IMG/VR virus record: IMGVR_UViG_3300046787_000438
Location: 64,001-128,000 of that record
Length of the DNA stretch: 64,000 bases
Source: a virus
Reading direction: 5' to 3' (one strand)
The position numbers were made by a program, and so were the translations under genes. The notes beneath the pieces are model-generated. The model had not been told where the DNA came from, made no database searches, and was given only the letters and a program-made list of their open reading frames with translations. Positions within the stretch are counted from its first letter, which is position 1; every line of letters starts with the position of its first letter. Of the stretch, positions 33,415 to 58,528 are shown piece by piece.

Positions 33415-33570
33415 TTGTAAATGACTGTGATTGGGTATATACTGTAAGTGGTTCATTAAGTGCTCCAATCCATTTTGTGAACTCCTTTCTATTGTGTGCG
33501 GAAAGGCGGTCCAGGAACTTTAGGGTTTATTCATTCCCCTTCTTTCCGCCTGGGCCGCCTTTCTATTTTT
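33415..33570 (+). ncRNA. Candidate small RNA with own promoter and terminator carrying anti-RBS/anti-AUG sequence
   Basis: TTGTAA-17-TATACT (33415-33443); 15-bp stem 33501-33515/33549-33563 plus T run; 33470-33494 complementary to early-gene leaders. Confidence 0.65.
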
Positions 33571-33925
33571 GGGGGTATACTCTAAAACTATGGATGAAGA
33601 GTATGAAATAGAGGTTCCTATTGAGCGGGAGCCTGTCGAGGGCTACGCTACCCCTAGTGACATCCAAAGGATTAGAGCTGAGTTCCTATCTGAATGGCTT
33701 AAGAGATGGGAAGGTATCTATATCTCTGAACGTAAGATACTTGAAGTATTTGGGGCTATGGGAATGACTATTGAGCTAGATGATCGTAATGGGGCTACTG
33801 CAATGGAAGCTCTTAAATACCTTGACTATGAGATAGATTCTGATAGTATCGATCCTATAAGCTTGGCTAGATATAAAATTAGCCGAGACAAAAAGAAGTA
33901 CTAGGAAAGAATAAAAGGAGAGAAC

Positions 33926-34216
33926 ATGACGACTTCAGTTCCAGCTATAGCTCTACTACTTGGCACTCTTGAAAAGGGCTACGTACTAGACATCTATGTT
34001 GAAGGCGAAGACAAGCGAGCCTACGATGGCGGCTTGAATAAGGATGAAATAATTCACGTTGCGGAAGACGGAATTATCTATAGGACCGATGCGGACAATG
34101 AAGTAGTCTACATCCCTATGTCACGAATCAATCACCTGTCAGTGAATAAGATGTTTGACTTTGAAAATGATATTGACTTTATTGATGTAAAAAACAAAAG
34201 AGAGGTTAGCTTCTAA
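33926..34216 (+). CDS. Hypothetical protein
   Basis: AAGGAG RBS. Confidence 0.6.
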   Translation: MTTSVPAIALLLGTLEKGYVLDIYVEGEDKRAYDGGLNKDEIIHVAEDGIIYRTDADNEVVYIPMSRINHLSVNKMFDFENDIDFIDVKNKREVSF

Positions 34217-34670
34217 TGACTATTGACTGGAGTTGGTGGGCGTTCGTTGCTGGAGTACTGGCAACGCTAACCGTTGAGTTCTGGGTAGTAATTGCTATTG
34301 CTTGGAAGCAGTGGAAGAAGCAGCAGAAGAAGGCTACGTCATTCGCTGATGACTGGACTGTAGATAGAATGTTCGGTTCAGGTAATAAGTAAAGCTTGAT
34401 ACCCTTGCCATGTGTTAGCATGTTATTATGACAAGCTTTCAGGTGGCCCTAATAACCCTCGCTGCCCTTTGGGTAGTGGGGGTTGTTTCTTTTATGCTAT
34501 GGCTAACCTTTAAGGTCATCCCTAAGATCCATAATGAGTTGGATGAGATGGGTATGAGTGAGGGCGAAAAGCGTAAGACGCTAACTAAGGTTGCCTATCC
34601 ACCTAGGTTCTTTAAGTAATACTTAATACTTAATACTTGACAAATAAACGTAATGCTGTACTATTGAAGT

Positions 34671-35045
34671 ATGGATTACGAAACTTATGCAGCTTATACA
34701 ACTCCTAAGGCCTACAAAGCTTGGGCGCTTGGGGCTCTTGTAGCGGGGGCTATAGCCTTCTTTGGTGGAGTAGTGGGGGTGCTGGCATCTATCCCTGTCG
34801 GAATAGCGGTGGCTTTGGCGTTATATCGCTGGGTATTCTGCAACGCTGAGGAGCGTGCCTTTTTCGATAGTGAAGAATATTCGACATTACAGGCCTCATA
34901 CAGAAGACGTCAGAGTGTTGCGTTGGACGCCCGTATTTATTACGAGTCGTTAATCCCTAAGGCAAAAGAGGACAGGTATGTGGCCGAAGTGCTAGAGGAA
35001 GTTGTACAGATTGCTAAGACAACTGCTAAGTCTGGCAGACGCTAG
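34671..35045 (+). CDS. Membrane protein
   Basis: TTGACA promoter upstream; two TM segments. Confidence 0.55.
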   Translation: MDYETYAAYTTPKAYKAWALGALVAGAIAFFGGVVGVLASIPVGIAVALALYRWVFCNAEERAFFDSEEYSTLQASYRRRQSVALDARIYYESLIPKAKEDRYVAEVLEEVVQIAKTTAKSGRR

Positions 35046-35674
35046 AGGGTCCCTAGAGAATCCCTAAATGCATTGACTTCGTCAAAGATGGGTAGGGATG
35101 GGTCTAGCTGACTTAGGTGTGAGAAGTCTGAGTGTGGATGCTGAACGAACCTAAAAAACATAACGCGAATATATTCGTTGTCTTTGAAAGTCTTGCGTGG
35201 CCTCCAATGGACGTTCCTATTTGGGTGAAATAGTAGGGCGGAGTTATCTTCTAAAGTGTAGAGATCCATATCGATACCTAATGGCCAATAGGTGTTTGGA
35301 CTGGAACTTAGCTGGAAGTCAATGATGTAGTCTGTGAAATCGCCATCATAGTGTGGACGTAACTTAGGGACGCCGTACTTACTACTGTATTCAACGCAAA
35401 GTGGTGGGTTCATAACTTCAAGCTCTAAGTTGGGGAAGAGCTCTTTAATTAGCTTATTGAGCTTAAGTTCGATCTCTGGTGGTAACGTACCGTTCTCTAG
35501 GTGAACCCTACCTAGCTCCTGATATGTGTAGACGTCACTATCTGGAAGAGTAGCTAACGCGTGGTTTATGGCAACTAGCTCTTCTGAAGTGAATAGGTTG
35601 GGTAAAAGTATTGGAGTGGGTGGGCTAATCTTCATCTTCGTCTGGCCCCCAAACGTAACGCCTAACGGTTCCAT
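35042..35674 (-). CDS. 2OG-Fe(II) oxygenase-like protein (10194-type)
   Basis: L.PHYD, WPLGID, HWRP. Confidence 0.65.
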   Translation of the reverse strand: MEPLGVTFGGQTKMKISPPTPILLPNLFTSEELVAINHALATLPDSDVYTYQELGRVHLENGTLPPEIELKLNKLIKELFPNLELEVMNPPLCVEYSSKYGVPKLRPHYDGDFTDYIIDFQLSSSPNTYWPLGIDMDLYTLEDNSALLFHPNRNVHWRPRKTFKDNEYIRVMFFRFVQHPHSDFSHLSQLDPSLPIFDEVNAFRDSLGTL

Positions 35675-35869
35675 ATAGATCGATTACTTCGGATACTAGC
35701 TTCTCTGTTGCGATTAGAAGGTCTGCCTTTGATTCGGCATCTATTGGTTCGTCAACCTCTGTGTGGATCTCCTGAACTGCATACGCGCATAAATCTAAAC
35801 GCCGTAGTGCATTAACTAGGGATGCGTGTGGGAGTCGATCTGTGGACATGGTTTCTATTGTAGCCGAGG

Positions 35870-39125: not shown

Positions 39126-39401
39126 CTGGTTGAAATCAAATAATGCTTAATGAAGGGCAAAACCCCTGCGTTTACCCTCACCTCGTCCAAAAAATTCGTC
39201 CAACGAATAATCAACAACTTTTCATGATTGTACAATTGTTGCTATGTTTACTGCAGCTAAAACTAGTGGCGTCCACAATACCCTACAATTGATGGAGAAG
39301 GCGGCCTTACCACAGTCCTCTCCCCAGTTGGTAGGGTCGCTTTCGCCTTCCTGTCTAAGTTGCATCATCATTAAGAAGTTGCTTGACATTAGGGACGTAC
39401 A

Positions 39402-41357: not shown

Positions 41358-42209
41358 ATGAGATTCCGTAAACGCCAAGATCCTGCTGCAGCAGCTGAAC
41401 TTTTCATCAGCAAAGCTCAGCAATACCTGGGCTACACAGCTGAGATGCTTGGCCGTAACATGTTCGGCCAGAAGGTTGGCTATGACTCAACCCCATGGAG
41501 CGGCGCGTTTATTGACGTAGTCGCCCGTGAGGCAGGCCTCCACCTACCAAGCTTTGTCTACACTCCTGCCGCGCTCGCAGAATTCATTCGCCAGGGAAAC
41601 TTTTCACGGGTACCGCAGCTTGGCAGCGTAGCGATCTATAACTTTTCATCAGAAGTTGGAGCTGCGGCGAGCGCCTTCTCAATGCCCCATTGCGGAATCG
41701 TGACCGACGTCCGCGAGTTCGAGACCACGGGACGGTTTATAACCGTTGAGGGAAACACCGAAGGTTCAACAACTCATACCAAGAAGGATGGCGTGCATCA
41801 ACGGATCCGCACAATTAACGATGTAGTTATTTTTTGTCAGCTGCCTGCAGCACGGATCTCAACTTTTAACGGAAGATTGATTAAGCTCCTGGATCGCGGC
41901 CGCACAACTTTTAACGGCGAGGATCTTAAAGCTATAGACGACGCGGCCCGCATTCCTTCAATACTTCGCATCAACAACGAGATCAAGCACGGATCACGTA
42001 ACCGCGATATCGAGATCCTGCAGCTAGCGCTTGCAACTGTTACTGACTTACGTGGCTGCGTACCTGGTAAGTGGGACACAATAACCGCGTCTGCTTGCGC
42101 AAGATATCAACGTATGATAGGATTCGTTGGAGCAGATGCAAACGGCCTGCCTAACCTAAACACGCTGAAGCGCTTAGCTAAAGAGACGGGACTCTTCACA
42201 ATTGCCTAA
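41358..42209 (+). CDS. CHAP-domain protein with peptidoglycan-binding C-terminus
   Basis: PWSGAF, HCGIV, TVEGNT; LQLAL...G.WD..T. Confidence 0.7.
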   Translation: MRFRKRQDPAAAAELFISKAQQYLGYTAEMLGRNMFGQKVGYDSTPWSGAFIDVVAREAGLHLPSFVYTPAALAEFIRQGNFSRVPQLGSVAIYNFSSEVGAAASAFSMPHCGIVTDVREFETTGRFITVEGNTEGSTTHTKKDGVHQRIRTINDVVIFCQLPAARISTFNGRLIKLLDRGRTTFNGEDLKAIDDAARIPSILRINNEIKHGSRNRDIEILQLALATVTDLRGCVPGKWDTITASACARYQRMIGFVGADANGLPNLNTLKRLAKETGLFTIA

Positions 42210-47319: not shown

Positions 47320-49185
47320 ATGGCACACTACAGTTCTAAGGGAAAATCAAGACTTACCAAGCGCACTAGCGCAACTCCGTCAGAGTGGTATCGTGTTTGC
47401 TCACAGATTGGTCGTCTAGTAAACGACTGGTCATGGAGAAGCGACCTTGCCGTTTATGGTGGCGAGGATTCATGCGAGGGTCGTGCGATAGCAGGATACT
47501 ACGCCGAGATTGCCGAGATTGAGATAGATGTTCGCAAGGCGTTTGGAGAGGGCGTTAGCCCAGACTTCGTTGGCGACCTAAACGAAAAGGCAACTCGCTA
47601 CGAGTTCCCAATGGTTTCAGGAATCCTATTCCATGAGGCACTTCACGCTCGCCACACAGGCTGGGACACAGCCTACTTGTCAGAGCAGTTTGAGAACATA
47701 GAAGCACAGGCGTTCATGGCACTTGAGGAATCTCGTATCGAATCTCGTGGCGTGAAAGAGCGACCAGAGAATCGTTTGTTCCTACGCACTTCGGCGTTGG
47801 ACATGGCACTTGAGGGCGTAAACGAATCAGCACTCGCAAAACTTGGTGGCGACAAATGGATTACAGCGAATCTCGCAACTCTATCTATCGCACGAGTGGA
47901 CGCAGGTGTTCTTGAGGTTTCAGACATCAGCGAGATTTACAAAGAGGTTGTCAGCGTTCTTGGTCAAGACTTGTTTGACGAACTACGCAAAGTTTGGATT
48001 GCGTTTCAGGCACTAGGCGTTCCACAGATTGACGAGGCGATTGCGCTCGCTAAGAAGTGGGTCGAACTTTTGCGTGAGGCAGACCCAGAGGGCGAGCCAA
48101 ACAAGGACGAAGTTGGCGACCCATTCGCAGAGGAATCTGGCGAGGGTGAGGGCGAGGGCGAAAGCGAATCTGGCGAGGGCAAGGGCGAAATGTCAGAAGC
48201 CATGAAGCAGTTGGTTTCTAAACTTTCAGATTCAGCGAGCAAGACAGAAGCAAACGCAGAGCAAGCACTTGGCGACCAAGAGCGCAAAGAGAAGTGGGAC
48301 GAGGAATCAAAGGCACGCCAGAGCGAAGCGCAGAAAAACAATCAGCGCAAGCAGGAAGCCAAAAAGATTTTCGACAAGAGCCACAACGAAAGTGGTTCTG
48401 GTTCTAACTCACGAGTAAGCGAACGCCGAGTGCCAACTGGCGCAGAGCGAGCCAGCGCAGTCCAGATTGCTAAGGCGTTGGAAAAGGCGAAGTATCGTGA
48501 GCGTTCTGTCCATGTTCGCAAGCACCAAGCACCACAGGGTCGCTTGATTGCTCGCAACGCAGTCCAGAACAAGGCTATGGAATCTATGGGATTGCGTGGC
48601 GAGTTGCCAGCGTGGAAGTCAAAGACACGCAAGCACACAGACGACCCAACTCTCAAGATTGGTGTCATGGTGGACATCTCTGGTTCTATGGGTTCGGCTA
48701 TGGAATCTATGGGAACTACGGCTTGGGTTCTATCGGAAGCAGGTCGCCGAATCCAAGCGGAAACCGCTATGATTTACTACGGCTCGGGTGTCTTTTCAAC
48801 TCTACGCCGAGGTCAGCGATTGAGCGAGGTTTCTATCTACACCGCACCAGACGGAACGGAAAAGTTTGCCGAGGCGTGGGAAGCACTTGACGGCGAACTC
48901 GGATTGACTTTCACAGACGGCGTGCGTTTGTTGGTAATCGTGTCGGACGGAAACTACACACCGAAGCAGACCGAGAGTGCCAAGCAGATTCTCCAAGAGT
49001 GTAAACGGAACGGCGTGGCAGTCTTGTGGATTACCCCGAAAGATTGCTACTCGCTTGGGGCAAGGCACATCATCAACGGCTCGGGTTGGGGAATCCACTT
49101 GGATAACCTTGACACGAATGAGATTGCTTCACTTGTCGGCAAGACGGCAAGCGAAGCGTTGGGTAAGGTCGGCTCGCTCATGTGA
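47320..49185 (+). CDS. VWA domain protein with N-terminal HExxH and acidic linker (CobT-like AAA+ partner)
   Basis: HEALH, EESRIE, E/G-rich linker, MIDAS DISGSM...T...VSDG. Confidence 0.85.
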   Translation: MAHYSSKGKSRLTKRTSATPSEWYRVCSQIGRLVNDWSWRSDLAVYGGEDSCEGRAIAGYYAEIAEIEIDVRKAFGEGVSPDFVGDLNEKATRYEFPMVSGILFHEALHARHTGWDTAYLSEQFENIEAQAFMALEESRIESRGVKERPENRLFLRTSALDMALEGVNESALAKLGGDKWITANLATLSIARVDAGVLEVSDISEIYKEVVSVLGQDLFDELRKVWIAFQALGVPQIDEAIALAKKWVELLREADPEGEPNKDEVGDPFAEESGEGEGEGESESGEGKGEMSEAMKQLVSKLSDSASKTEANAEQALGDQERKEKWDEESKARQSEAQKNNQRKQEAKKIFDKSHNESGSGSNSRVSERRVPTGAERASAVQIAKALEKAKYRERSVHVRKHQAPQGRLIARNAVQNKAMESMGLRGELPAWKSKTRKHTDDPTLKIGVMVDISGSMGSAMESMGTTAWVLSEAGRRIQAETAMIYYGSGVFSTLRRGQRLSEVSIYTAPDGTEKFAEAWEALDGELGLTFTDGVRLLVIVSDGNYTPKQTESAKQILQECKRNGVAVLWITPKDCYSLGARHIINGSGWGIHLDNLDTNEIASLVGKTASEALGKVGSLM

Positions 49186-49553
49186 GTCCCTTGCCCTAAC
49201 GGAGTGCCTAACCGATTGGATTGAGCATAGTGCCAGACCCCCCTTACTGGTCGCTCTCCTAACGGACGGGACACTAGAAGCCCCTATCAACTCTTTCCCC
49301 CATTGGTTGGTAGGGGTTTCGCCATACCCAAGACGGATAGGTGCTTGCGTGGTATTAGCGTGCTAGGGATTGACGGCTCGTCAGAAGTTCTCGTGAAAAG
49401 CAGGTGACAGACTTTTCTGATTTTCGAGCCAGAGGTTGTATTTATTTTTTGTCGAAAACTTCGTATCTTGATTTGACATGACTAAAAAAGTCAGGTAAGT
49501 TTGGAACTACCAAACAGGGACGAACAAGAAGTAGTCCCAAAGGGGGTGTCAGA

Positions 49554-49892
49554 ATGGCAACAGCCACTAAGACCCAAGACCAGACCCAGACGAAAGTCTT
49601 GGTCAAAGTTTCACGCAAGTTCGTTGCTATGTTGGACGAACTCAAAGATGTTCGTGCTACTTACAATCAGGCAGACAAGCGTATTGCCGAACTGCGTAAG
49701 GACATCTTTGCCGTAGTTGGCGAACAAGCCCAGACTCTAACCCACAATGGGGTTGAGGTCGCCGTAATCGTTGCCCAGACCAAAGAGGTTGTGGACATGG
49801 ACTTGCTGAAAGCCAACTTCCCAGAGGTGTATCAGGCTTGCCTAGTGAGCAAGACCCAATACCCTATTCGTGCGGTATCTCGCTCGAAGTAG
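49554..49892 (+). CDS. Early protein, paralog of 57810..58154
   Basis: TLTHNGVE, DLLKANFPEVYQAC. Confidence 0.7.
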   Translation: MATATKTQDQTQTKVLVKVSRKFVAMLDELKDVRATYNQADKRIAELRKDIFAVVGEQAQTLTHNGVEVAVIVAQTKEVVDMDLLKANFPEVYQACLVSKTQYPIRAVSRSK

Positions 49893-50040
49893 TCGAGAGG
49901 GGCAGGGGGAAATCCTTGCCCCTTTTTTCTGAAGCGAGTATGTATTTATTTTTTGTCTGCGATTCCGACCCGCCGTCAAAAGTTGTGGCGAATGTCGCAA
50001 CGCCGTAGTAAGTTAGAACTATAAGAAAGGGGAGTTCACA

Positions 50041-50376
50041 ATGAGTGAGCCATTAGAACTACAAGACATAGCAGGACTTAGCCTGACGATTATTGGCGTG
50101 TTGATTGAGAGTTATGTGAACGAGGGATACGCCGACCCAACAATGTATAAGGCGTTGTCTGCGACTGCCGAACTAGCAGAGCAGTTTCAGGCACGAGCAA
50201 AGTATGACAACGCACCTAGCGATGTTGTCGAATCTATCGCCGACTTGCTAGTGAATCTCAAACTCACAGCGATTGAGTGCGGAGAAGTTGTAGAGCGAAT
50301 CATCAAAGAGCAGGGAATCGAAGTCAAGGGCGATTGGTCTGCCCACACTTGCGACGACCCAGAACACGACCACTAG
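50041..50376 (+). CDS. Hypothetical early protein
   Basis: AGAAAGGGGAG RBS. Confidence 0.65.
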   Translation: MSEPLELQDIAGLSLTIIGVLIESYVNEGYADPTMYKALSATAELAEQFQARAKYDNAPSDVVESIADLLVNLKLTAIECGEVVERIIKEQGIEVKGDWSAHTCDDPEHDH

Positions 50377-50385
50377 GAGAGAATC

Positions 50386-50688
50386 GTGAATCTAAACTTT
50401 AGAACTGCCCTCGGAGAAATCTTGCGAGAGAAGCGACACGAGTTAGGTCTGAACTTGCGTCAGGTTTCCAGCAAAGGTTTCGTGGCACTCGGATACTTGA
50501 GTGAAGTTGAGCGTGGACAGAAAGACGCTTCATCAGAAACTCTAGAAGCGATTGCTCAAGGCTTGGGCGTAGAAGTTTACGAACTTGTCGTAGAAGCAGG
50601 GTTGCGGATGGCAAATGCCCCAGACAGCCCAGAAAGTCTTTTCACTCGGAACGCCGATTGGTCAAAGCAATACGCCGACCTCTCATAG
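50386..50688 (+). CDS. XRE-family HTH regulator, ClgR-like
   Basis: GEILR..R...G..LR.VS....V.LGYLSEVERGQK.ASSE.L.AI. Confidence 0.85.
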   Translation: MNLNFRTALGEILREKRHELGLNLRQVSSKGFVALGYLSEVERGQKDASSETLEAIAQGLGVEVYELVVEAGLRMANAPDSPESLFTRNADWSKQYADLS

Positions 50689-50868
50689 CCCCGATAGCCA
50701 CAACTCAAAGCCCCTAAGCAGATTGCTTGGGGGTTTTGTTTTGCCCGATTATTTTGCGCCGTGCGTCTGTATTTATTTTTTGTCGCAGAGTTTTCGCCAC
50801 GAACGATTTTGGTTTGCCAAATGTCGGTAGCAGGGTATAGTATCGAACTATCAAAGAAAGGGGACAGA

Positions 50869-51123
50869 ATGTCCAGCAACTATCCAGAGGGGTCAATGCG
50901 TGGTTCGGGTATCTATGCCGAGGACTACACAGGAACTTTTTATTGCTCGGCTTGTGATGATGAATACTCGCTAGATGGAACTACTGACGATTGGGGCTAC
51001 AACGCTTCAGCCGAATGTCCAGACTGCGGTGCGACTTTGGAGGTAGAACTTCCAAGCCGAGAAGAACGAGATGAGGACGCTGATTACGATTCTTATCGTG
51101 ATAGCCAAATGGATTGGAACTAA
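50869..51123 (+). CDS. Zn-ribbon acidic early protein
   Basis: CSAC...CPDC; start set by RBS. Confidence 0.6.
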   Translation: MSSNYPEGSMRGSGIYAEDYTGTFYCSACDDEYSLDGTTDDWGYNASAECPDCGATLEVELPSREERDEDADYDSYRDSQMDWN

Positions 51124-51560
51124 AATGAGTCGTATCGCAAGAGAAAACCCAGAAGCAACATACGAAGAACTTTTTGATTTAGGACTGCGTGGAAGCGTGC
51201 GGGTCAGAGAGGGAGAGCAACTCCACCAATACGATTGCCGTCAATGCGGAGAGATTGTAATGGTAGACCAAGAGCAACACGAACGCTTACAGTATTTCCG
51301 TAGCCACCCAAAAGAGTTTGGGACTAGAACGCCAAAGTGCGGAGATTGTTGGGTGAACTAGCCCACCAAAGTCTTCCCCCGAATAATCAGGAACAGAGAT
51401 TCCGATTCGGGGGATTTTCTTTTGTCTGGTGCGTTTTTATTTTTTAGGTTTGGGTGTATTTATTTTTTGTCCAGCTTCGACACACGCTCGCGGGATTGGT
51501 TTGCGGTTTGCTAGCGCTCGCCGTATGATTAGATTGTTCACAAAAGGAAGGGGTTCCCAA

Positions 51561-51950
51561 ATGGGTTCACGAACAGAATGGATTATCAAGACGAACACTA
51601 GCGATAGTGCGCTTCACCTATACAGCCACTATGGTGGAGAGTCAAAGTTTGAGGATACACAGCAAGCGCTATTCAAGGCTCAGCCTCGCTGGAACGACAT
51701 TAGTTATGGCGCTCGTATCTTCACTAGCCAAATTATTGGCAACGATTGGGGCAGCGAAACTGGATTCGGCATTGCCATTGGTAATGACACAGACAACATG
51801 TTTGAGGAGAGTTACTTTCACGCCGTCATTGACTTTCCAAATCAGTTAGTTACTTTCGGTTCTATGACTTGGACTTTTGATGAGTTCGTGGTTGCCGACA
51901 ACTTTCAAGAGATTCTGGTTGAGGAGTATTGGGCAGAGGTGAGCGTCTAA
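51561..51950 (+). CDS. Phage protein (MG.R...LY.H..G type)
   Basis: AAGGGG RBS. Confidence 0.6.
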   Translation: MGSRTEWIIKTNTSDSALHLYSHYGGESKFEDTQQALFKAQPRWNDISYGARIFTSQIIGNDWGSETGFGIAIGNDTDNMFEESYFHAVIDFPNQLVTFGSMTWTFDEFVVADNFQEILVEEYWAEVSV

Positions 51951-52240
51951 TGGGCGCACTTCACGCTAACGCCATTGCCGCCGATACAGCGATTCCACTA
52001 GAGAAACAACTGGAGTGGCACTTACAAGGTAATCACTTTCCGCCGATTCCAAAATCTATGGTCATTCCATGCGAGGAAGCGATTCAGGCTTTCTGGGAAG
52101 ATGACTTAGAGAGGTTGATTAGTCTTCCAGATGGAGTTGGATACAAAGGTTTGACAGTTGCCCCTGCGAGGGCGATTATTATCGAACACCACCTAGACGC
52201 CTGGTGCGTTGAGTATGACGAAGAGGATTCAGACTTCTAG
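51950..52240 (+). CDS. Phage protein (HLQGNHFPP)
   Basis: TAATG coupling. Confidence 0.6.
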   Translation: MGALHANAIAADTAIPLEKQLEWHLQGNHFPPIPKSMVIPCEEAIQAFWEDDLERLISLPDGVGYKGLTVAPARAIIIEHHLDAWCVEYDEEDSDF

Positions 52241-52262
52241 TCAATAAGAGATAGACCCCGTC

Positions 52263-52370
52263 AGCGATTAGCATTGACGCTAATCGCTTTCGGCTTGCTA
52301 GGGTTTATCCCCCTTTTCCCTAGCATGCGGGTAGCAGATTCCCCCCTTTTCTGCTACCCGCTTTTCTTTT
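52263..52370 (+). ncRNA. Triple-hairpin element with C-rich loops ending in terminator
   Basis: Three perfect stems (10, 8, 12 bp); loops ATTGAC, TTTATCCCCCTTTT, TTCCCCCCTTT. Confidence 0.65.
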
Positions 52371-52518
52371 TGCCGTTTTGTTTTTCTTTTTTTTTGTTTT
52401 ACAAAGTGTATTTATTTTTTGTCTGTCAGATCAAAGCGCCGTTCGCAAAGGTGGAAAATGTCAGAGGATTTTAGTAAAGTTGTAGTAGTTGGAAGTTCCA
52501 ACAGATAAGGGGGCAGAG

Positions 52519-52881
52519 ATGCCAAAGACAGCAGTCATTGTGACTACCAAGGCGGAGGTCAGCATTATTGACATTGCCGAAGGTTCACTAAAGAAATTAC
52601 AAAGCGCCGTAGATGGCTTGATTCAGCCAATCGACCTAGACGCAAATGTGACTATGTGGGTGAACGAAGAGGGCTTGCTACGCAGTGACCTTGAGATGAA
52701 CGACATTGCCACAAGCCTTTACGCTCAAATGTATGACATCACTAACCCACTAATGGGAGATGTTGTCTTCACTGGTGGCACAGATGGAGAGGGCGAAACG
52801 CTCGGACTAGGCGACGACTATGTGAACGCAATCTACGCCCTAGTCGATAACTACAAACAGGTTATGTCGCAGTTCGCATAA
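52519..52881 (+). CDS. DUF3846-like protein
   Basis: LQSAVDGLIQ, MWVNEEG, N..AT, GDVVF.G. Confidence 0.7.
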   Translation: MPKTAVIVTTKAEVSIIDIAEGSLKKLQSAVDGLIQPIDLDANVTMWVNEEGLLRSDLEMNDIATSLYAQMYDITNPLMGDVVFTGGTDGEGETLGLGDDYVNAIYALVDNYKQVMSQFA

Positions 52882-53057
52882 CTAACAAAGACACAGCCCC
52901 TCGCAGAAATGCGGGGGGTTTCTTTTTACCCTAAACAAAAACTTTACGCGCTCGCGGGGTGTATTTATTTTTTGTCAAGCTGCCGTATTATGCGCCGTGA
53001 AAAGTTTGCGCTTGTCAGAGGTTGGTGGTAGGTTTGGAACAAGGAAAGGGGACAGAG

Positions 53058-54111
53058 ATGTCAATGCTAAAGACTAAGAACTACAACGCAGAGTTTGCGT
53101 TCGAGCAAGTCATTCGCCTAGTAGGTGGCGCAAGCGAGTATGGCGACAGCACCAAGGCTAGTATCTGGGCAGAGTGCCACAACAACGAAACTATCGAGAT
53201 GTTGGCGGGTATGTATCTGGTTGGTTCATCAGAGCGTGCGGAACGCAACCTTGCTCGTCTAAACGATAAGTTGCGACAGGTATTCGGTATCTAATGGCTA
53301 TGACTTATCAAGAGCGTAAAGCCAAGGGCTTGCGACAGCGTGCGGAGTATCGTAATCGTCTACACCACGCAGAACACCTTGCCGTAATGTTTCGTGGGTT
53401 CGGTATTGGATTTAGTTTTATTACAGTAATGACAGCCGTTGCTGGAGTTCACGGAACTTTAGCGATTGCGTTGTTCATTATGTTTATGTTGATTGCTGGT
53501 TCAGGTTTTATTGGCGCAGAACACATTATGTTTTGGGCAGAGCAAAGCCGTTATCCAAAGAGTCGCCGTAGAACTTTACGAAGCGAGTTCGCAGATGAGT
53601 GGCGTAGATTTAGACAGTACCGAAAAGTAGAAAAGGGTTAGAAGTGAAAATGGTAACGATAGGTGACTCGGTTGCCTCGCTAGAAGTTAGAAATAACGCA
53701 GACAATACTGGACTAGAACTAGAAGTTTGGGTCACTAAGCGTGTTGGCTCGTTCTATGCTCTATTGGGCTACGGAGTATTCGGAGTGCCATTAGGCATGA
53801 GTGAAGTAGATTTCTACACAGATACCCTATACCCGATTATGAAGAGCGCACCCCTCACCACAAGTCAGCCAAGCCGAATGGCGTTGGATTTTGATGGCTC
53901 TATGAAAAGAGCAGAGGCACACATAATCAGCCATAGAAACAACCACCCATTCTCAAATAAAACTCGGTCTGTATCCCCTGAAGAGGGCTTAGCAAAAATG
54001 CTAGGCGCAGGGGCAAAATACTTGACTATTTTGGCGGAGATAAATGGAGTTACGCCACGCACTATGGAAACTATGCGTAAGAGGTCAAAAGAGTATTACG
54101 CAAAACAATAA
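53058..54111 (+). other. Cassette of three hypothetical genes (53058-53294, 53294-53641 membrane, 53644-54111)
   Basis: RBS and coupled junctions. Confidence 0.6.
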
Positions 54112-54313
54112 GAGTTAGCCCCCCACTAACAAAAGCCCCCATTATGTTCATTCATAGTGGGGGTTTTGTTTTGCTCGAAGCGTTTTGTGTTTTTTTACAC
54201 TCGCCGTGTATTTATTTTTTGTCTATATGTGGGGCAACTTTTTACGGAGCGCCGTAAGATGTTTGATTTATTTGGTTTATAGGATACGATTGAACTACAT
54301 AGAAGGGGAGCAA

Positions 54314-55000
54314 ATGCTAGTAAACAACAAAATGATGTCTTATAGGACTACACCGACTGAAAAATTGCTGGGCACAGTAAACAAGTATGCCGTGATTGGC
54401 TACCTAGAGGGAATAAAGACTTTAGTTTCAGATAGCGAAACACTAATCAAGGCGCAGGAGCAGAAGTTCACTGACGCAATAGTAAAAGCGGAGGCGCAAG
54501 TTTCTGAGTGGGAAGCCGAGTATATTCAACTACATACAAAGGCATTGCGAGCAGAACTTAAGCGTAAACTCGAAGCACCGACCAGCGCTACTCATTGGCT
54601 GAGTGCCGAGGAGATTCGTCTGCCTATCAGAGATGAAGTAATCTCTAACGAGATTGCTGAACTTTTAAAGCGCCGCCCTGATTATCGAACTTATCAGATT
54701 GCTAGGGGAGATGTCGGAGCGCCTCATGACATTCAGTATTCTAGAGCGTGGAGCAAAGGCAATAAGACTTTGGTAGGTATAAATAGACTCACCACGCGCC
54801 GTGTGGAGCAGTGGCAAGCCTCACTAGATAGTCTGATTTCTGACCTAAAGGATAGAAACAAGCAAGAAGTTTACATAGCGCAGGTTATGGAACTCAAGCG
54901 CACCACAGCAACTATTCTTGCGAACTGGGGTATAGATACCACCAAGACTGAGCGCAAGGACAGGGATAAACCAAAGCCACGAAGCAAAACTAAAAAGTAA
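54314..55000 (+). CDS. Hypothetical early protein
   Basis: GAAGGGGAG RBS. Confidence 0.6.
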   Translation: MLVNNKMMSYRTTPTEKLLGTVNKYAVIGYLEGIKTLVSDSETLIKAQEQKFTDAIVKAEAQVSEWEAEYIQLHTKALRAELKRKLEAPTSATHWLSAEEIRLPIRDEVISNEIAELLKRRPDYRTYQIARGDVGAPHDIQYSRAWSKGNKTLVGINRLTTRRVEQWQASLDSLISDLKDRNKQEVYIAQVMELKRTTATILANWGIDTTKTERKDRDKPKPRSKTKK

Positions 55001-55163
55001 CAACCAAAGACCCAAGCCCCGCTAGATTTCTGGCGGGGTTTCTTTTTATCGTGCTATTCGTGTATTTATTTTTTGTCTGAAGCCCGCCGCAACTTTTGAT
55101 GAGAGTTGCGAAGTGTCACAGACCTAGGGTAAGATTTAAGTATCAAAGAAAGGGGAAGCGATT

Positions 55164-55892
55164 ATGGCAAAGCCAAGCGTTTCAGCAGTAAAAGAATGGG
55201 ACACAGTTTACGAGAGTGACCTAGTCGAACTCGCAGTAGGGACAGCAGTATTTGCCGAGGACTACTGGCGTATGACGAATGTTGTTACTGGCAAGAAGAA
55301 GTATTTCTATGGCGAACTTGCGTGGGCAGATTCACGCCGAGAAGCAAGCGACCTAGACTTTGAGGCGTGGAACGTATGAACGAGTTGAAGCGTTGCCCAA
55401 AGTGCGCTGGACACATTCCGAACAACAAGACCCCTGGGGCATACCCTGGTGCGATTTCACGCCGAGACAACACGACAGAGATTTGTTCAGCGTGCGGAAC
55501 AATGGAAGCGCTGGAAGATTTCTTTGAGCGTGAAAAGGTTGGTGCGTAATGGCAACAACCTTAGAGCAGACAACTTGCTACAAGTGCGAAGCCGAGATTG
55601 AGGCAGAGGTTGGGCAGGTTCACCCTTTGTGTTCAGAGTGCCAAGACGATTTCGATAGTTGGTTCAATAGCCAGTTAGGAATGTTCAAGTGAGCAAGCAA
55701 GTATTTTTTGTTATTGGCGTTGATTTAGATGACAAAGAGGTTTTTATCGCAGATGACACTTATTCAGCGCGGTTCAGCGAAGACGAGCAAGTCTGGGACA
55801 CCGACATAAACGAATGGGTTGAAGATGAAGATAGGAAACACTATCTTGACGCATTAGACCTTTTGAACAATAAAAAGTTAGCAAGAGATTAG
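55164..55892 (+). other. Cassette of four small genes, including two Zn-finger mini-proteins
   Basis: 55164-55379, ~55376-55549 (CPKC..CSAC), ~55549-55692, 55689-55892. Confidence 0.55.
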
Positions 55893-56098
55893 ATTTCTGC
55901 CCCCCCCCCCTAAAAGAAAAAGCGCTCGCCGAAAGGGGGGCGTTTTTTTTTGCGTGCGGGAGATTTATTCGAGTCCCGTGTGTATTTATTTTTTGTCGAA
56001 GTTTAGGGGAGCGCCGTTGAGGAGTTTGCGTTTATCGTTGGTTGCTTGTATAGTTATAGATGTCAGGAAAACTTGACACTAAGTAGGGAGATAGAAAA

Positions 56099-56323
56099 AT
56101 GAAGTTTTACATTCGCAGAGCAGTAGTCGGAGTTATCGCAGTTCCAGTTGTCGCAGGTCTTTACACTTTTGCTTACCTATGGTTGGTAATCGCAGGGGGA
56201 GAGCCTAACGTTTCAAGTGAAGAAGTATTCAACAATGGGTTGTGGCTAGGCGCGTTGATTGCCGTAATGCTTACATTCTCACCGCAGGTTTCTAAGTTGC
56301 TAAACAGAATTGTGGGTGCGTAA
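56099..56323 (+). CDS. Small membrane protein
   Basis: Two TM segments, GGGAG RBS. Confidence 0.6.
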   Translation: MKFYIRRAVVGVIAVPVVAGLYTFAYLWLVIAGGEPNVSSEEVFNNGLWLGALIAVMLTFSPQVSKLLNRIVGA

Positions 56324-56694
56324 TGAGCAACGCCGATTGGGCATTATTGTTTGGAGTAGTGAGCCTATCAGTTGGTTCATTCCTATTAGGTTTCGTGATT
56401 AGCGGATTGCCAAAGCGTGAGGGTCGTAATGGTCGCCACGCAAATGGCAGGGGTCGCCACACGAGTTAGAGTTGTCCCCCTACAACAAAATAAGAAACCT
56501 CACGAGTGTTCATTCCTCGTGGGTTTTCTTTTTGTTTGGGTTGGCGTTCGTTGTTTTTTTCTGCCGAGTGTATTTATTTTTTGTCGCGCTCGCTGCGGGC
56601 AACAACTCGCCGTTCGTGAAAAGTTTGGGAATGTCGTAGGTAGTTAGTAAAATAGAACTATCCCAAAAGGGACAAAAGGAAAAGGGGAAACAGA

Positions 56695-57027
56695 ATGTCA
56701 AGAGTTGCTAACTATCAGATAAATGGTTTGATTCAAAAGTTTCAAGAGTTTGTGAACTACAACGGAACTATTACTGCCGAGATAGATGACAAGGGGATTT
56801 ACCGTATTACGCATTGGCGAACTACTATCCTCGAATACGATGTCTACAACCACCAGATTGTTTCGCTAACATACGGATACATTAGCCAGACAACCAGCAC
56901 ACTAGTCGGTCGTATCTTGCGCTCGCTACCGCAACCAGCCGTTGAGAACTATCTAGGCTATTTCTCACCGTCAGCCGAGAAGCGTCGCTTAGTGAAGATG
57001 TTGAACACTAGGGCTTACGCCTACTAA
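56695..57027 (+). CDS. Hypothetical early protein
   Basis: AAAGGGG RBS; YISQTTS motif. Confidence 0.65.
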   Translation: MSRVANYQINGLIQKFQEFVNYNGTITAEIDDKGIYRITHWRTTILEYDVYNHQIVSLTYGYISQTTSTLVGRILRSLPQPAVENYLGYFSPSAEKRRLVKMLNTRAYAY

Positions 57028-57236
57028 CCACCAATACAAAGAAGCACCCGTCAGAAGTGGCGGGTGTTTTTTTATTTGTGCGGGAGATTTGTTTGCCGCA
57101 GCGTGTATTTATTTTTTGTCTGAGGTGCGACACGGTTCGTGAAAAGTTTGGAATACGATTTGACTTTTGGTTCGATAGCGATAAACTTGAGTTATCAAGT
57201 AAACCGCTTGATAGAGAAAGATAAAGGGGATACAAA

Positions 57237-57488
57237 ATGTCAGCAGTTCTAACCACCCAGAACATCGTTACCGTAGTTGCTAAGGTCGTAGACATCAACA
57301 CAGGCGAAACCATTGAGCCAGTTTACGAAGCATACGGATACGAGAAGTTTCAGGAGTTCGTGGACTTTTACCGCAAGCAGAACTACATCAACAAGATTGT
57401 TTGGGTTCGTGGCTTTGGATACAACGACGAGAACGGCGCAAGCCAAGTTCTAGCAACCGAGTTCGTTGGCGTTGGAAGTTTCGAGTAA
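57237..57488 (+). CDS. Hypothetical early protein
   Basis: AAAGGGG RBS. Confidence 0.6.
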   Translation: MSAVLTTQNIVTVVAKVVDINTGETIEPVYEAYGYEKFQEFVDFYRKQNYINKIVWVRGFGYNDENGASQVLATEFVGVGSFE

Positions 57489-57809
57489 TGGAGACCCTAG
57501 AGAGCCTACTAGAGGGGGTAGCGTTTGAGATTGAGAACGAAACAGGAATACCGATAGAGGTTATCTTTGAGGGAAACCTAATCACCATCAAGCAAGGCTA
57601 ACCACAGAGAGAAGCCCCCAAGCCGAAAGGCTAGGGGGTCTTTCTTTTGCCGTAGTTGGCTTTGGCGTTTTTTGTTCCCGTGCCTGTATTTATTTTTTGT
57701 CGAAACCGACACGCCCAGCCGTAAAAAGATTTGACTTATTTTGGAATAGCGTTTAGGCTGATTACATCAGCAAAAGTTGATACACACAAAAAGAAAAAGG
57801 GGCTACAAA

Positions 57810-58154
57810 ATGACCACCACCACCACCCAGAACGCAACCACCACCAAGGCAACCAAGGTTGTTCTTGAGCAGGTAAAGCAGTTGGTCGAAGTTCGTGCCG
57901 AGATTGCTCGCCTAGAGAAGATGAAGGTCGCATTGACCTCCCAGATTGAGGGCGTGTTTGGTGTAGACAAGGAAGCCAAGACTGCCGAGTTCACTACCTT
58001 GACCCACAACGGCATTGAGTTTGCTCGCATTGACCTACGCACTCGCAAGGGTGTAGATACCGAGAAACTTGCCGTAGAGTTCCCAGAAGCCTACGAGGCT
58101 TGCTTTGACCCAGAGATGACCAAGTATTTCCAGATTGTGAGCCTCTACAAGTAA
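57810..58154 (+). CDS. Early protein, paralog of 49554..49892
   Basis: TLTHNGIE, EKLAVEFPEAYEAC. Confidence 0.7.
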   Translation: MTTTTTQNATTTKATKVVLEQVKQLVEVRAEIARLEKMKVALTSQIEGVFGVDKEAKTAEFTTLTHNGIEFARIDLRTRKGVDTEKLAVEFPEAYEACFDPEMTKYFQIVSLYK

Positions 58155-58528
58155 GCCACTAGCCAAGAAGCCCCTGCCGTTAGTTCGGTAGGGGTTTTTT
58201 GCTTGCCGAGGCACTTGATTGGTGTCAAGGGGGGCTAGACAGAAAATAAATACACAGGGCAGGGCTCTATTCACTCATAGGGCTTGCCCGTAGAGAGTTC
58301 CACCAGATAGAGCAGGGGCAGGACATACATAGACCACACAAGACCCATCAAGATAGTCGCCCACCATTCTTTAGCCCCTAGAAGCCTCATAGAAGCCACA
58401 GGCATAGCCTTAGCCACCAGATACCCACCAAGACCCCTAGAAGTCCACAGAGGCACTCATAGCCCAGAGCAGGGAGATAGCCACACAGAGGGGGGGGGTG
58501 TCTATTAGTTCACAGTCATAGACATACA

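What the first reader, a model, noticed from the sequence alone, without database searches (positions are those of the whole stretch)
33415..58254. Integrated hypothesis: cassette-built early module with an antisense anti-RBS RNA shut-off layer
Seen: (i) 14 cassettes share an invariant 17-mer and mostly an unusual AAAGGGG RBS; (ii) the block lacks restriction palindromes; (iii) at least five RNA elements (33450-33570, 39297-39344, 47186-47213, 49220-49320, 52263-52361) show unpaired sequence complementary to such leaders. Known: C-rich-loop sRNAs such as S. aureus RNAIII and RsaE repress translation by pairing with SD sequences. Inference: the phage standardised the DNA tag (17-mer) and the mRNA tag (G-rich RBS) of its first-expressed genes so they can be switched on together and silenced together by phage RNAs. 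I know of no described phage system combining these features.
Basis: partly seen in the sequence, partly recalled or inferred. Interest (0 to 1): 0.9.

Follow-up and report, generated by a model that had tools for sequence, protein, structure and literature searches.

The report
Early-gene cassettes with anti-RBS RNA hairpins
An uncultured 152-kb phage of freshwater actinobacteria has a 14-kb block of self-contained early-gene cassettes stripped of restriction sites, and it carries conserved small RNA structures whose loops mirror ribosome-binding sites; the best conserved of them most likely throttles its own gene rather than switching off the whole block.

Summary
The three observations hold, with corrections. 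(i) The 17-mer occurs 14 times exactly, plus two one-mismatch copies, only in 41.8-58.3 kb. The AAAGGGG ribosome-binding site is private to the first gene of each cassette. (ii) Palindrome loss is extreme but confined to 44.5-58.5 kb. (iii) Of the five RNA elements, three are conserved in related phages (49192-49330, 39284-39351, 33415-33575), one is strain-specific (52263-52372) and one is not supported (47186-47213).

The strongest result concerns the structured RNA just behind the VWA (cobT-like) gene. It is found by a covariance model in at least 20 related phage contigs; on an 18-sequence alignment 24 of 34 pairs show compensatory changes. A hairpin at the same place recurs in phages down to 40% protein identity. 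Across 33 clades, its loop is the best or joint-best complement of that gene's own ribosome-binding leader in 19 (2.2 expected). Loop and leader therefore change together.

This supports real RNA-RNA pairing. It favours an icaR-like tail-to-start brake on one gene over a global early shut-off, which remains possible in this phage but is untested. An earlier follow-up in this scan reported the same VWA-tail hairpin in another genome. A matching hairpin turned up in Cluster K1 mycobacteriophages.

The parts
44500..58500 (.). Palindrome-purged island that coincides with the 17-mer cassette array; candidate first-expressed (pre-early) region
   Evidence: 500-nt windows hold 2-13 4-mer palindromes (one holds 20) inside the island, against 22-37 outside, with sharp edges. 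The same island occurs in relatives.
44647..57701 (+). 14 exact copies of TGTATTTATTTTTTGTC, each heading a promoter-gene(s)-terminator cassette. Starts: 44647, 45325, 49437, 49941, 50768, 51455, 52407, 52960, 54207, 55061, 55981, 56569, 57104, 57685
   Evidence: In 11 of the 14 cassettes the distance from the motif core to the called -10 hexamer is 43, 52-53 or 62-63 nt, one helical face; the other three calls (32, 71, 80) look like promoter miscalls. Relatives carry their own variants, TAGTTATTTTTTCTG or GTATCCACTTTTTT.
58238..58254 (-). One-mismatch 17-mer copy on the opposite strand, at the right edge of the island
41822..41838 (+). One-mismatch 17-mer copy inside the ORF 41358-42209, outside the purged island
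43620..57802 (+). Stereotyped AAAGGGG Shine-Dalgarno sites 5-9 nt before the first ATG of cassettes. Starts: 43620, 44726, 45451, 46111, 49539, 50026, 50857, 53045, 55149, 56681, 57223, 57796
   Evidence: The site pairs with the usual 16S tail through one G-U wobble (inference from the usual actinobacterial 16S 3' end).
46126..47190 (+). MoxR-type AAA+ ATPase gene
   Evidence: Pfam AAA_5, E = 3.6e-21.
47320..49185 (+). VWA / cobT-like gene, the conserved anchor of the RNA element. Its own leader carries GGGAAAG at 47310-47316
   Evidence: Weak VWA_CoxE match. The homologue in phage DSL-LC01 is annotated as a cobalamin biosynthesis protein. 80 related loci were found.
49192..49330 (+). Conserved structured 3'-UTR RNA of five helices, starting about 7 nt after the VWA stop. 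Loop 1 is within 49236-49247 (CCCCCCUU). Loop 2 is within 49291-49306 (CUUUCCCCC). The tail is UUUCGCC.
   Evidence: Covariance model R1 scores 122 bits here and finds the element behind the VWA gene in at least 20 related contigs at E <= 1e-6. On the 18-sequence alignment, 96% of cells pair, 24 of 34 pairs show compensatory change, and the covariation score is 0.58 against 0.07-0.13 for slid controls. There is no Rfam match.
39284..39351 (+). Candidate stand-alone hairpin RNA: -10-like TACAAT (39284-39289), stem from 39295, invariant loop 39313-39328 (GUCCUCUCCCCAGU core), tail UUUCGCC
   Evidence: Conserved in 6 relatives, with 8 of 16 pairs compensatory and the loop unchanged. It aligns to the 3' hairpin of model R1 at 24 bits. 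The loop has a 12-nt exact complement to the start region of the gene at genome 13567.
33415..33575 (+). Promoter-like site (TTGTAA-17-TATACT, 33415-43), a 5' hairpin, a single-stranded CUCCUUUCUAUUGUGU (33482-97) and a terminator hairpin with a U-tract (33498-33575). Either a small RNA or an attenuator leader of the gene at 33590
   Evidence: Fold z = -4.4. Promoter scan. The -10/start region, the anti-SD stretch and the terminator stem are conserved in relative G001. Duplexes of -29 to -34 kcal/mol form with the leaders at 43633, 44741 and 51561.
52263..52372 (+). Three tandem hairpins after the gene ending at 52240. Two loops carry C5-C6 followed by U-runs; the last hairpin is an intrinsic terminator
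   Evidence: Fold z = -8.6. By BLAST it is found only in the 99%-identical strain L127. No match to its own cassette leader.
47186..47213 (+).
   Evidence: Fold z = -0.35. The C-run at 47215-18 pairs with GGG across a larger stem.
54114..54130 (+). Mini-hairpin with a C6 loop just after a stop codon. Similar items: the C11 run at 55900-55910 and the mini-hairpin at 56471-56487
   Evidence: Unpaired probability 0.9-1.0 for the first two. Unpaired C>=5 runs number 8 in 4.2 kb of block intergenic RNA, against 3 in 11.5 kb elsewhere.
50386..50688 (+). XRE-type helix-turn-helix protein, the only recognisable DNA-binding protein found among the block proteins scanned
   Evidence: Pfam HTH_3, E = 5.5e-8. 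Three calls covered about 30 of the block's proteins.

Best explanation
The stretch is the pre-early region of a lytic phage of low-GC freshwater actinobacteria.

Cassette layout. About 14 autonomous cassettes sit in a 14-kb island purged of restriction palindromes. Each cassette has a terminator, the 17-mer, a sigma-70-type -35/-10 promoter, a short leader with AAAGGGG, one to four genes, and a terminator. This layout fits DNA that must be expressed before anti-restriction functions exist.

The 17-mer. It is an upstream promoter element. It sits on one face of the helix, centred near -62, -72 or -82, and is read by a lineage-specific factor that has not been identified.

The RNA layer. It is real but mixed.
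(a) The 139-nt structured RNA directly behind the VWA (cobT-like) gene is made as that mRNA's 3' UTR. It displays loops complementary to translation-start regions. It most likely folds back on, or pairs in trans with, the VWA mRNA's own ribosome-binding site, and possibly those of neighbours carrying the same tag, to limit translation, as the icaR 3' UTR does.
(b) The hairpin at 39.3 kb is a separately transcribed paralogue of the 3' hairpin. Its invariant loop fits the start region of a replication-module gene.
(c) The RNA at 33.4 kb carries a single-stranded anti-SD stretch and is either a small RNA or an attenuator.

Shown: sequence, structure, conservation and co-variation. Inferred: transcription, pairing in vivo, and the sign of the effect.
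For: Cassette anatomy:
- Layout, repeat counts and private SD.
- Helical phasing of the 17-mer.
- Lineage-specific motif variants in relatives. The distant relative DSL-LC01 has 33 copies of a different stereotyped promoter plus a stereotyped leader.
- Palindrome purge here and in relatives.
- Host class: two WhiB genes, no sigma factor; the nearest named phages infect actinobacteria.

The RNA behind the VWA gene:
- It starts within about 10 nt of the stop codon across the related loci examined.
- The covariance model finds it in at least 20 related contigs.
- On the 18-sequence alignment, 96% of cells pair, 24 of 34 pairs are compensatory, and the covariation score is 0.58 against at most 0.13 for slid controls.

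Loop-leader complementarity:
- In eight clades tested, the anti-leader 8-mer occurs once or twice on the + strand of a 16-41 kb locus, and that copy lies in the hairpin loop 20-110 nt after the stop. The sense copies number 3-41.
- The gene's own leader is the best or joint-best complement in 19 of 33 clade representatives, against 2.2 expected. The summed complement length is 292 against 210 +/- 9 (p < 5e-5).
- Inside the window's own clade, the leader GGGAAAG goes with the loop CUUUCCC in three genomes, and GGGAAGCAA with (U)UGCUUCCC in three others.

The other elements:
- The 39.3-kb hairpin's conservation and target.
- Conservation of the 33.4-kb RNA.
Against: - No RNA data could be obtained. 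Transcription, 3' ends and pairing are all inferred.
- In this phage the complement to the VWA gene's own leader is only 7 nt (-12.9 kcal/mol). The loops pair better with the leader of the next gene, 49554 (-19.8).
- In several clades (L140, L167, L207, L135) other cassette leaders match better than the gene's own. A trans role cannot be excluded there or here.
- Loop 1 keeps a C6 run even in clades whose leaders lack G-runs, so it may have another partner.
- The alignment used for pair counts was fitted to the model, which inflates the percentage paired.
- The phasing rests on automatic promoter calls, some of which are clearly wrong.
- No factor for the 17-mer was identified.
Confidence: 0.55

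Rival explanations
1. The phage RNAs act in trans on all AAAGGGG-tagged cassette leaders and silence the whole pre-early set together. For example, a stable 3'-UTR fragment could build up and titrate the leaders, acting as a timer.
For: - All the C-rich loops pair better with the 18 cassette leaders than with 91 other strong-SD leaders (p from 0.03 down to 5e-9).
- In L140 and L167 the loop matches the multi-copy leader consensus better than the gene's own leader.
- Unpaired C>=5 runs are about 7-fold enriched in the block's intergenic RNA.
- A C-run pairs perfectly with GGGG but mismatches GGAG, while the ribosome tolerates both. That would make the tag selective (inference).
Against: - Shuffled loops of the same composition pair nearly as well (z -0.4 to -2.8).
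- The comparative signal follows the VWA gene's own leader in most clades.
- The consensus-leader co-variation test is only weakly significant (446 of 20,000).
- One RNA made from an early promoter would have to titrate about 15 mRNA species.
- The 52.3-kb element is not conserved beyond a near-identical strain.
Confidence: 0.2
2. The C-rich loops mimic the host's 6C-type small RNA, or otherwise target host G-rich mRNAs or a C-binding protein. Their fit to phage leaders is a by-product.
For: - Two hairpins with C5-C6 loops resemble the 6C RNA of Actinobacteria, which binds targets through C-rich loops (PMC6486639).
- Loop 1 keeps its C-run in clades with GAAAGGA leaders.
- The loop of the 39.3-kb hairpin is invariant across relatives.
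Against: - No match to the 6C model, or to any Rfam family, even at E <= 10.
- In clades with private leader tags (ACAGA, AUAA, CGAAA, UGACGGAAGGA), the loop follows the tag rather than staying C-rich.
- No host genome is available to test.
Confidence: 0.1
3. The hairpins are only terminators or 3'-end stabilisers. The loop-leader complementarity is incidental or a relic of duplication.
For: - All the elements lie at 3' ends of transcription units.
- The last hairpin at 52.3 kb is a textbook terminator.
- The anti-leader stretch of the 33.4-kb RNA looks like an inverted copy of a paralogous leader.
Against: - The single + strand copy of the anti-leader word falls in the loop in clade after clade.
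- Loop and leader change together.
- The element behind the VWA gene has five conserved helices and no U-tract.
Confidence: 0.08
4. The leader word is a double-stranded DNA operator for a phage protein, as with Cluster A stoperators. The inverted copy would then be one more binding site.
For: - The word is asymmetric, multi-copy and orientation-biased, like stoperators (described in PMC3203893).
- A helix-turn-helix protein is encoded in the block.
Against: - The words sit at a fixed 5-9 nt from start codons.
- The inverted copy is always displayed in the loop of a hairpin whose stem co-varies.
Confidence: 0.05

Closest known systems
icaR mRNA 3'-UTR/5'-UTR pairing, Staphylococcus aureus (PMC3868564)
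   Same: A C-rich anti-SD motif (UCCCCUG there, CUUUCCC / CCCCCCUU here) lies in the 3' UTR of the same mRNA whose Shine-Dalgarno region it complements. That pairing blocks initiation.
   Different: Here the motif is displayed in loops of a conserved five-helix structure. It is phage-encoded and recurs across a large phage family, with loop and leader changing together. It may also reach other leaders that share the tag. RNase III cleavage and repression are untested.
6C RNA of Actinobacteria (Rfam RF01066; PMC6486639) and RsaE/RoxS-type C-rich small RNAs of Firmicutes
   Same: Hairpins present C-rich loops that pair with G-rich ribosome-binding regions, without a known chaperone. The host phylum is the same as for 6C.
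   Different: No covariance-model match. The element is made as a 3' UTR, not from its own gene. In other clades the loops are not C-rich but follow the phage's private leader.
[quoted passage not shown]
   Same: An asymmetric, multi-copy word that includes the SD sits 3-9 nt before the start codons of non-structural genes. It is often preceded by a conserved promoter-bearing module, and its function is still unknown. K1 phages have one reverse copy. I find that this copy sits in a hairpin loop.
   Different: The sequences and phage family are unrelated. The ESAS is an inverted repeat that contains the promoter, whereas the 17-mer here lies 40-60 nt upstream of the -10 hexamer.
T4 RegB nuclease and RegA repressor (my own knowledge; the T4 review PMC3014915 was listed but not read)
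   Same: Early mRNAs share a ribosome-binding-site feature (GGAG for RegB) that lets the phage switch off their translation as a class.
   Different: The T4 effectors are proteins. Here the candidates are RNAs, and class-wide action is unproven.
P1/P7 c4 and P22 sar antisense RNAs (my own knowledge)
   Same: Phage RNAs whose loops pair with a ribosome-binding region. In P1 and P7, loop and target differ together between the two phages.
   Different: Those RNAs control one immunity or antirepressor gene of temperate phages. No sequence or structural relation to them was tested here.
First-step-transfer (pre-early) region of phage T5 (my own knowledge)
   Same: A terminal block of small genes under strong host-type promoters is expressed before the rest of the genome and is free of some restriction sites.
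   Different: Two-step injection, and the position of the island relative to a physical DNA end, are unknown here. The purge covers most 4-mer palindromes, not a single enzyme's site.

Membership tests
icaR-type 3'-UTR to own-SD pairing | Anti-SD motif located in the 3' UTR of the same mRNA | tested here: met
   The element starts within about 10 nt of the VWA stop codon in the related loci examined, leaving no room for a promoter.
icaR-type 3'-UTR to own-SD pairing | Complementarity specifically to the gene's own SD region | tested here: inconclusive
   The family-wide test is met: best or joint-best in 19 of 33 clades, p < 5e-5. In this window the match is only 7 nt, and other leaders pair as well or better.
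icaR-type 3'-UTR to own-SD pairing | Pairing blocks the initiation complex and creates an RNase III substrate | not testable with these tools
   Needs toeprinting and cleavage assays.
6C RNA (RF01066) | Match to the Rfam covariance model | tested here: not met
   No hit at the gathering score or at E <= 10 over 33000-58600.
6C RNA (RF01066) | Two stem-loops with C-rich loops | tested here: met
   Loops CCCCCCUU and CUUUCCCCC, unpaired probability 0.98-1.0.
Intrinsic (Rho-independent) terminator | GC-rich stem followed directly by a U-tract | tested here: inconclusive
   Met for 52328-52372 and 33498-33575. Not met for 49277-49330 or 39295-39351, which end in UUUCGCC.
Upstream activator or UP-like promoter element (class I geometry) | Fixed helical face relative to the core promoter | tested here: inconclusive
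   In 11 of the window's 14 cassettes the distance to the -10 hexamer is 43, 52-53 or 62-63 nt. Across 109 cassettes in 8 genomes the modes lie near 30, 42, 52 and 63. The promoter calls were automatic and some are wrong.
Upstream activator or UP-like promoter element (class I geometry) | A cognate DNA-binding factor | not tested
   Only one HTH protein was found in the block. Co-variation of a protein with the motif variants was not examined.
Pre-early / first-entering phage DNA (T5 FST-like) | Local absence of restriction sites | tested here: met
   4-mer palindromes are 4-fold and 6-mer palindromes 11-fold depleted, with sharp edges. The island is conserved in relatives.
Pre-early / first-entering phage DNA (T5 FST-like) | Location at the DNA end that enters first; stepwise injection | not testable with these tools
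   The record's terminal repeat is an assembly feature. The physical ends are unknown.
Cluster K SAS/ESAS | The 13-nt word GGGATAGGAGCCC | tested here: not met
   The leader here is AAAGGGG-based. The resemblance is in architecture only.

The most novel reading that the evidence does not exclude
Actinophages may share a general device: a private extension of the ribosome-binding site (a 'tag') on chosen early genes, read by a single phage hairpin RNA that displays the anti-tag in its loop. The hairpin behind the VWA gene in freshwater actinophages would be one instance. The hairpin in the Adephagia/Anaya gp92-gp93 spacer, whose 10-nt loop is the only reverse copy of the Start-Associated Sequence, would be another. 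If so, this would give the SAS motif, unexplained since 2011, a testable RNA partner in a cultivable Mycobacterium smegmatis phage. It would also make the window's cassette tag plus C-loop RNAs a true class-wide translational switch.
Probability: 0.3. Interest if true: 0.85.

Novelty: new variant of a known kind. Interest (0 to 1): 0.72.

Why it matters
Post-transcriptional control by phage RNAs is little explored, above all in actinobacteria, which lack Hfq.

This family offers a natural experiment. Dozens of diverged phages have changed an RNA loop and a ribosome-binding leader together, which is about as strong as sequence-only evidence for an RNA-RNA contact can be.

The result links three features that are usually seen apart: a restriction-site-free pre-early island, phased stereotyped promoters, and tagged leaders.

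The parallel hairpin in Cluster K1 mycobacteriophages gives a cultivable system in which to test what Start-Associated Sequences do.

The modular cassette heads (17-mer, promoter, strong SD) and the anti-tag hairpins could also serve as parts for gene expression in actinobacteria.

Tried and rejected
- Rfam, at gathering score and at E <= 10, gave only the tRNAs and chance terminator-like hits.
- An exact search for the 17-mer in IMG/VR returned 116 or more single chance matches and no relative.
- The DSL-LC01 VWA protein alone found no relatives. The alignment query did.
- A 19-mer from the promoter/start region of the 33.4-kb RNA found only G001 plus two unrelated chance matches.
- The 8-mer reverse-complement count was too noisy for C-run loops, because the low-complexity filter removed them.
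- The mean longest-complement matrix over all called leaders gave only a small diagonal excess.
- The cassette-level test, each 3' UTR against its own first-gene leader, was negative (p = 0.86). I therefore dropped the idea that every cassette has its own tail-to-start pairing.
- Cultured relatives with the AAA/VWA gene pair (Microbacterium phage Pumpernickel, Gordonia phage Forza) have no such hairpin.
- Pixie (Cluster K3) has no reverse SAS copy by a simple search.
- I considered the 17-mer as a promoter in itself and rejected it. It contains no TAnnnT hexamer at a usable position, and clear -35/-10 pairs lie downstream of it.
- I considered a phage sigma factor and found none.

Full report
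WHAT THE DNA IS

The window is bases 64001-128000 of a complete 152,411-bp virus record with 46.6% G+C. The genome encodes two WhiB-like proteins and no sigma factor. Its MoxR-type ATPase is closest to that of the metagenome-assembled 'Actinomycetia phage DSL-LC01' and to phages of Microbacterium and Gordonia. I read it as a lytic phage of low-GC freshwater actinobacteria. The host itself is inferred, not shown.

OBSERVATION (i): CASSETTES

The 17-mer TGTATTTATTTTTTGTC occurs 14 times exactly, always on the + strand, between 44647 and 57701. There are also two one-mismatch copies: 41822, inside a gene, and 58238-58254, on the minus strand. It occurs nowhere else in the genome. About 0.02 copies are expected by chance in the window.

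Each copy follows a terminator. Downstream of it come a GCCGT / AAAAGTTTG patch, a TTGnnn -35, a TAnnnT -10, a GAACTA patch and AAAGGGG, then the ATG 5-9 nt later.

AAAGGGG is private to these cassette heads. Thirteen of the genome's 15 + strand copies lie here, and 12 precede a first gene. Second and later genes in a cassette, and the rest of the genome, use AGGAG-type sites. AAAGGGG still fits the usual 16S tail through one G-U wobble, so it is a variant site rather than an exotic one (inference).

In 11 of the 14 cassettes, the distance from the motif core to the -10 hexamer is 43, 52-53 or 62-63 nt. The other three calls (32, 71, 80) look like promoter miscalls. Over 109 cassettes in eight related genomes the modes lie near 30, 42, 52 and 63 nt, that is, on one helical face. 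The promoter calls were automatic and some are wrong.

Relatives keep the architecture but change the word. L119 and L127 have TGTATTTATTTTTTGT. Four contigs have TAGTTATTTTTTCTG and four have GTATCCACTTTTT(T). The distant DSL-LC01 has 33 copies of a different extended -10 promoter, each followed by the leader ACGACGAAAGGACAA.

A word that is uniform within a genome but differs between lineages, phased to the promoter, is best read as the site of a lineage-specific factor. That factor was not identified. Among about 30 block proteins scanned, the only recognisable DNA-binding protein is an XRE-type HTH at 50386-50688.

OBSERVATION (ii): PALINDROMES

- From about 44.5 to 58.5 kb, 4-mer palindromes fall to 15.4 per kb, against 59.7 elsewhere.
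- 6-mer palindromes fall to 1.34 per kb, against 15.4 elsewhere.
- GATC is 1 of 517 genome copies, TGCA 0 of 705 and AGCT 2 of 1001.
- CTAG, GCGC and TCGA are spared.
- The left third of the finding (33.4-44.5 kb) is normal.

The same island, starting 4-5 kb upstream of the VWA stop codon, is present in the relatives of the C-loop clade but not in DSL-type genomes.

Together with the self-contained promoter-terminator units, this fits DNA that is expressed before the phage can protect itself, as in the T5 first-step-transfer region (my own knowledge). The order of DNA entry cannot be tested here.

OBSERVATION (iii): THE FIVE RNA ELEMENTS

Element 4 (49220-49320)

This is the strong one. A 139-nt structure (49192-49330) begins about 7 nt after the stop codon of the VWA / cobT-like gene.

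It aligned across 11 first-round relatives. A covariance model built from nine sequences finds it behind the VWA gene in at least 20 related contigs at E <= 1e-6. On an 18-sequence alignment:

- 96% of cells pair.
- 24 of 34 pairs show changes on both sides.
- The covariation score is 0.58, against 0.07-0.13 when partners are slid by 1-3 columns.

One caveat applies: that alignment was fitted to the model. Two loops are unpaired and C-rich, CCCCCCUU and CUUUCCCCC. Rfam has nothing like it.

Element 2 (39297-39344)

This is a paralogue of the 3' hairpin of element 4, with the same AGAA...UUUCGCC frame. In six relatives the stem changes with pairing kept (8 of 16 pairs), while a 14-nt loop core, GUCCUCUCCCCAGU, is invariant. 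A TACAAT hexamer sits 5-9 nt before the stem. It is therefore probably transcribed on its own.

Element 1 (33450-33570)

It has a TTGTAA-17-TATACT site, a 5' hairpin, a single-stranded CUCCUUUCUAUUGUGU and a terminator with a U-tract, all on the + strand. The -10/start region, the anti-SD stretch and the terminator stem are conserved in the one relative that reaches this far. The large C-rich loop is not conserved.

It pairs at -29 to -34 kcal/mol with the leaders of 43633, 44741 and 51561. That is because it is the inverted image of a paralogous leader.

It ends 15 nt before the ATG at 33590. It may therefore be an attenuator of that operon rather than a free small RNA; its CCUUUC could compete with the terminator's 3' arm (inference).

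Element 5 (52263-52361)

It folds very well (z = -8.6). By sequence search it is shared only with a 99%-identical strain. Its last hairpin is an ordinary terminator.

Element 3 (47186-47213)

It is not supported. The fold z is -0.35, and its C-run pairs within a larger stem.

Other items

Beyond these five, a C6 mini-hairpin (54114-54130), a C11 run (55900-55910) and another mini-hairpin (56471-56487) sit in 3' UTRs. Unpaired C>=5 runs number 8 in 4.2 kb of the block's intergenic RNA, against 3 in 11.5 kb elsewhere.

WHAT THE LOOPS PAIR WITH

All the C-rich loops pair better with the 18 cassette leaders than with 91 other strong-SD leaders (p from 0.03 down to 5e-9). However, shuffled loops of the same composition do nearly as well (z -0.4 to -2.8). 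Only element 1 shows sequence-specific fit (z = -6).

The decisive evidence is comparative. A profile search with the VWA protein returned 80 loci at 40-74% identity. Almost all have a hairpin directly after the stop codon, and its loop mirrors that genome's leaders:

- TTATCCTTTC against GAAAGGATAA (L140)
- TCTGTCCC against GAGGGACAGA (L150)
- TTGTCCTTT against AAAGGACAA (DSL-LC01, L202, L156)
- TTTCCTTTCGTT against AACGAAAGGAAA (L167)
- TCCTTCCGTC against GACGGAAGGA (L165 and others)
- GTCCTTTCGTC (L183)

In eight clades tested, the anti-leader 8-mer occurs once or twice on the + strand of a 16-41 kb locus. That copy sits in the loop, while the sense copies number 3-41.

Against the consensus leader, the co-variation test is only modest (446 of 20,000 permutations).

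An earlier follow-up in this scan had reported, on another genome, that the hairpin behind a phage VWA gene matches that gene's own ribosome-binding site (e1-5791703). I tested that reading here. Among 33 clade representatives, the VWA gene's own leader is the best or joint-best complement in 19, against 2.2 expected (maximum 8 in 20,000 draws). The summed complement length is 292 against 210 +/- 9.

This explains cases that failed the consensus test. In L192 the pair is AGAGACAGG / CCUGUCUCU. In L199 it is AAGAAUAGAA / UUCUAUUCUU. In the large group where the loop reads CCUUCCGUCA, the VWA leader alone reads UGACGGAAGG.

Inside the window's own clade, three genomes pair the leader GGGAAAG with the loop CUUUCCC, and three pair GGGAAGCAA with (U)UGCUUCCC.

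The closest known mechanism is therefore the icaR 3'-UTR/SD pairing of S. aureus (PMC3868564).

Three limits apply.
- In this phage the own-leader match is only 7 nt (47310-47316 with 49293-49299; -12.9 kcal/mol). The loops pair better with the leader of the next gene, 49554 (-19.8).
- In L140, L167, L207 and L135, other cassette leaders match better than the gene's own.
- The other cassettes' 3' UTRs show no own-leader match (p = 0.86).

So a wider, class-level action is not excluded here, but it is not what the conserved signal shows.

The invariant loop of element 2 has a 12-nt exact complement (AACUGGGGAGAG) at -20 to -9 of the gene at genome position 13567. That gene lies between the DNA polymerase and a helicase. 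By my rough estimate such a match at a start region has a chance of about 0.003. The site is kept in three of four relatives, but it is also coding sequence for the polymerase C-terminus. Co-variation therefore cannot be read from it.

A PARALLEL IN CULTURED PHAGES

Cluster K mycobacteriophages carry the 13-nt Start-Associated Sequence before 13-19 genes. Its role is still described as unknown (PMC3203893, PMC11373665, PMC12699233). The 2011 paper notes one reverse copy in K1 phages that is not at a gene start.

In Adephagia and Anaya, that copy lies exactly in the 10-nt loop CCUCCUAUCC of a roughly 20-bp hairpin downstream of gene 92. The fold z is -5.2, and the stems differ between the two phages with pairing kept. 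Pixie (K3) shows none by a simple search.

The papers I read do not mention this hairpin.

VERDICT

The observations are largely right. The anti-RBS RNA idea has real comparative support. The specific claim of a coordinated shut-off layer is not established. The best-supported function is a gene-specific tail-to-start brake on the VWA gene, plus at least one separately transcribed hairpin RNA aimed at another start region.

I rate the finding as a new variant of known kinds. The precedents are icaR-type pairing, C-rich-loop small RNAs, SAS-like tagged leaders and T5-like pre-early DNA. The whole sits in an uncultured phage family.

Noticed in passing
L213:46660-46715 (Adephagia JF704105, genome about 58,660-58,715); L214:31850-31905 (Anaya): The single reverse copy of the Cluster K Start-Associated Sequence lies in the 10-nt loop CCUCCUAUCC of a roughly 20-bp hairpin downstream of gene 92. 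There are 16 sense copies. The stems differ between the two K1 phages with pairing kept. Pixie (K3) has none.
   Followed up: partly
whole genome (G000): CCGG is absent from all 152,411 bases, where about 447 copies are expected from composition. This genome-wide avoidance is separate from the local palindrome purge.
   Followed up: partly
window 58155-58893: A 739-nt non-coding stretch at the right edge of the purged island holds CA-rich repeats (ACACATCACACATC), repeated CCCCTAGAAG words and a G9 run. DSL-LC01 has a similar CA-rich repeat field (L001:38775-39377) near its terminase gene. It may be a packaging site, a DNA end or an origin.
   Followed up: no
window 15460-16328: A cluster of seven tRNA genes: Ser, Met, Ile, Leu, Arg, Asp, Thr.
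   Followed up: no
window 37614-37964: A 116-aa protein whose C-terminal half consists of lysine/alanine/proline repeats (AKKPV-like), resembling histone H1 or HU-tail DNA-binding proteins.
   Followed up: no
window 33394-33408 (minus strand): The extended -10-like CTGGTAAAAT is conserved in relative G001. It lies back to back with the + strand promoter-like site of the 33.4-kb RNA and is the likely promoter of the leftward operon that starts at 33359.
   Followed up: partly
genome 13547-13558 (L219:2548-2559): AACTGGGGAGAG encodes the DNA polymerase C-terminus and serves as the SD of the next gene. It is the exact complement of the invariant loop of the hairpin at window 39313-39328.
   Followed up: partly
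window 52519-52881 and 50869-51361: The cassette genes include a DUF3846 protein and two small zinc-ribbon proteins. One has a weak match (E = 0.023, below the curated cutoff) to the Lar restriction-alleviation family, which hints at a pre-early, anti-defence role for the block.
   Followed up: no
window 47219-47270: A 14-bp hairpin lies between the AAA+ and VWA genes. It is flanked by CCCC and AAAAGGG, which extend the stem. It sits just upstream of the VWA leader and could affect how accessible that leader is.
   Followed up: no
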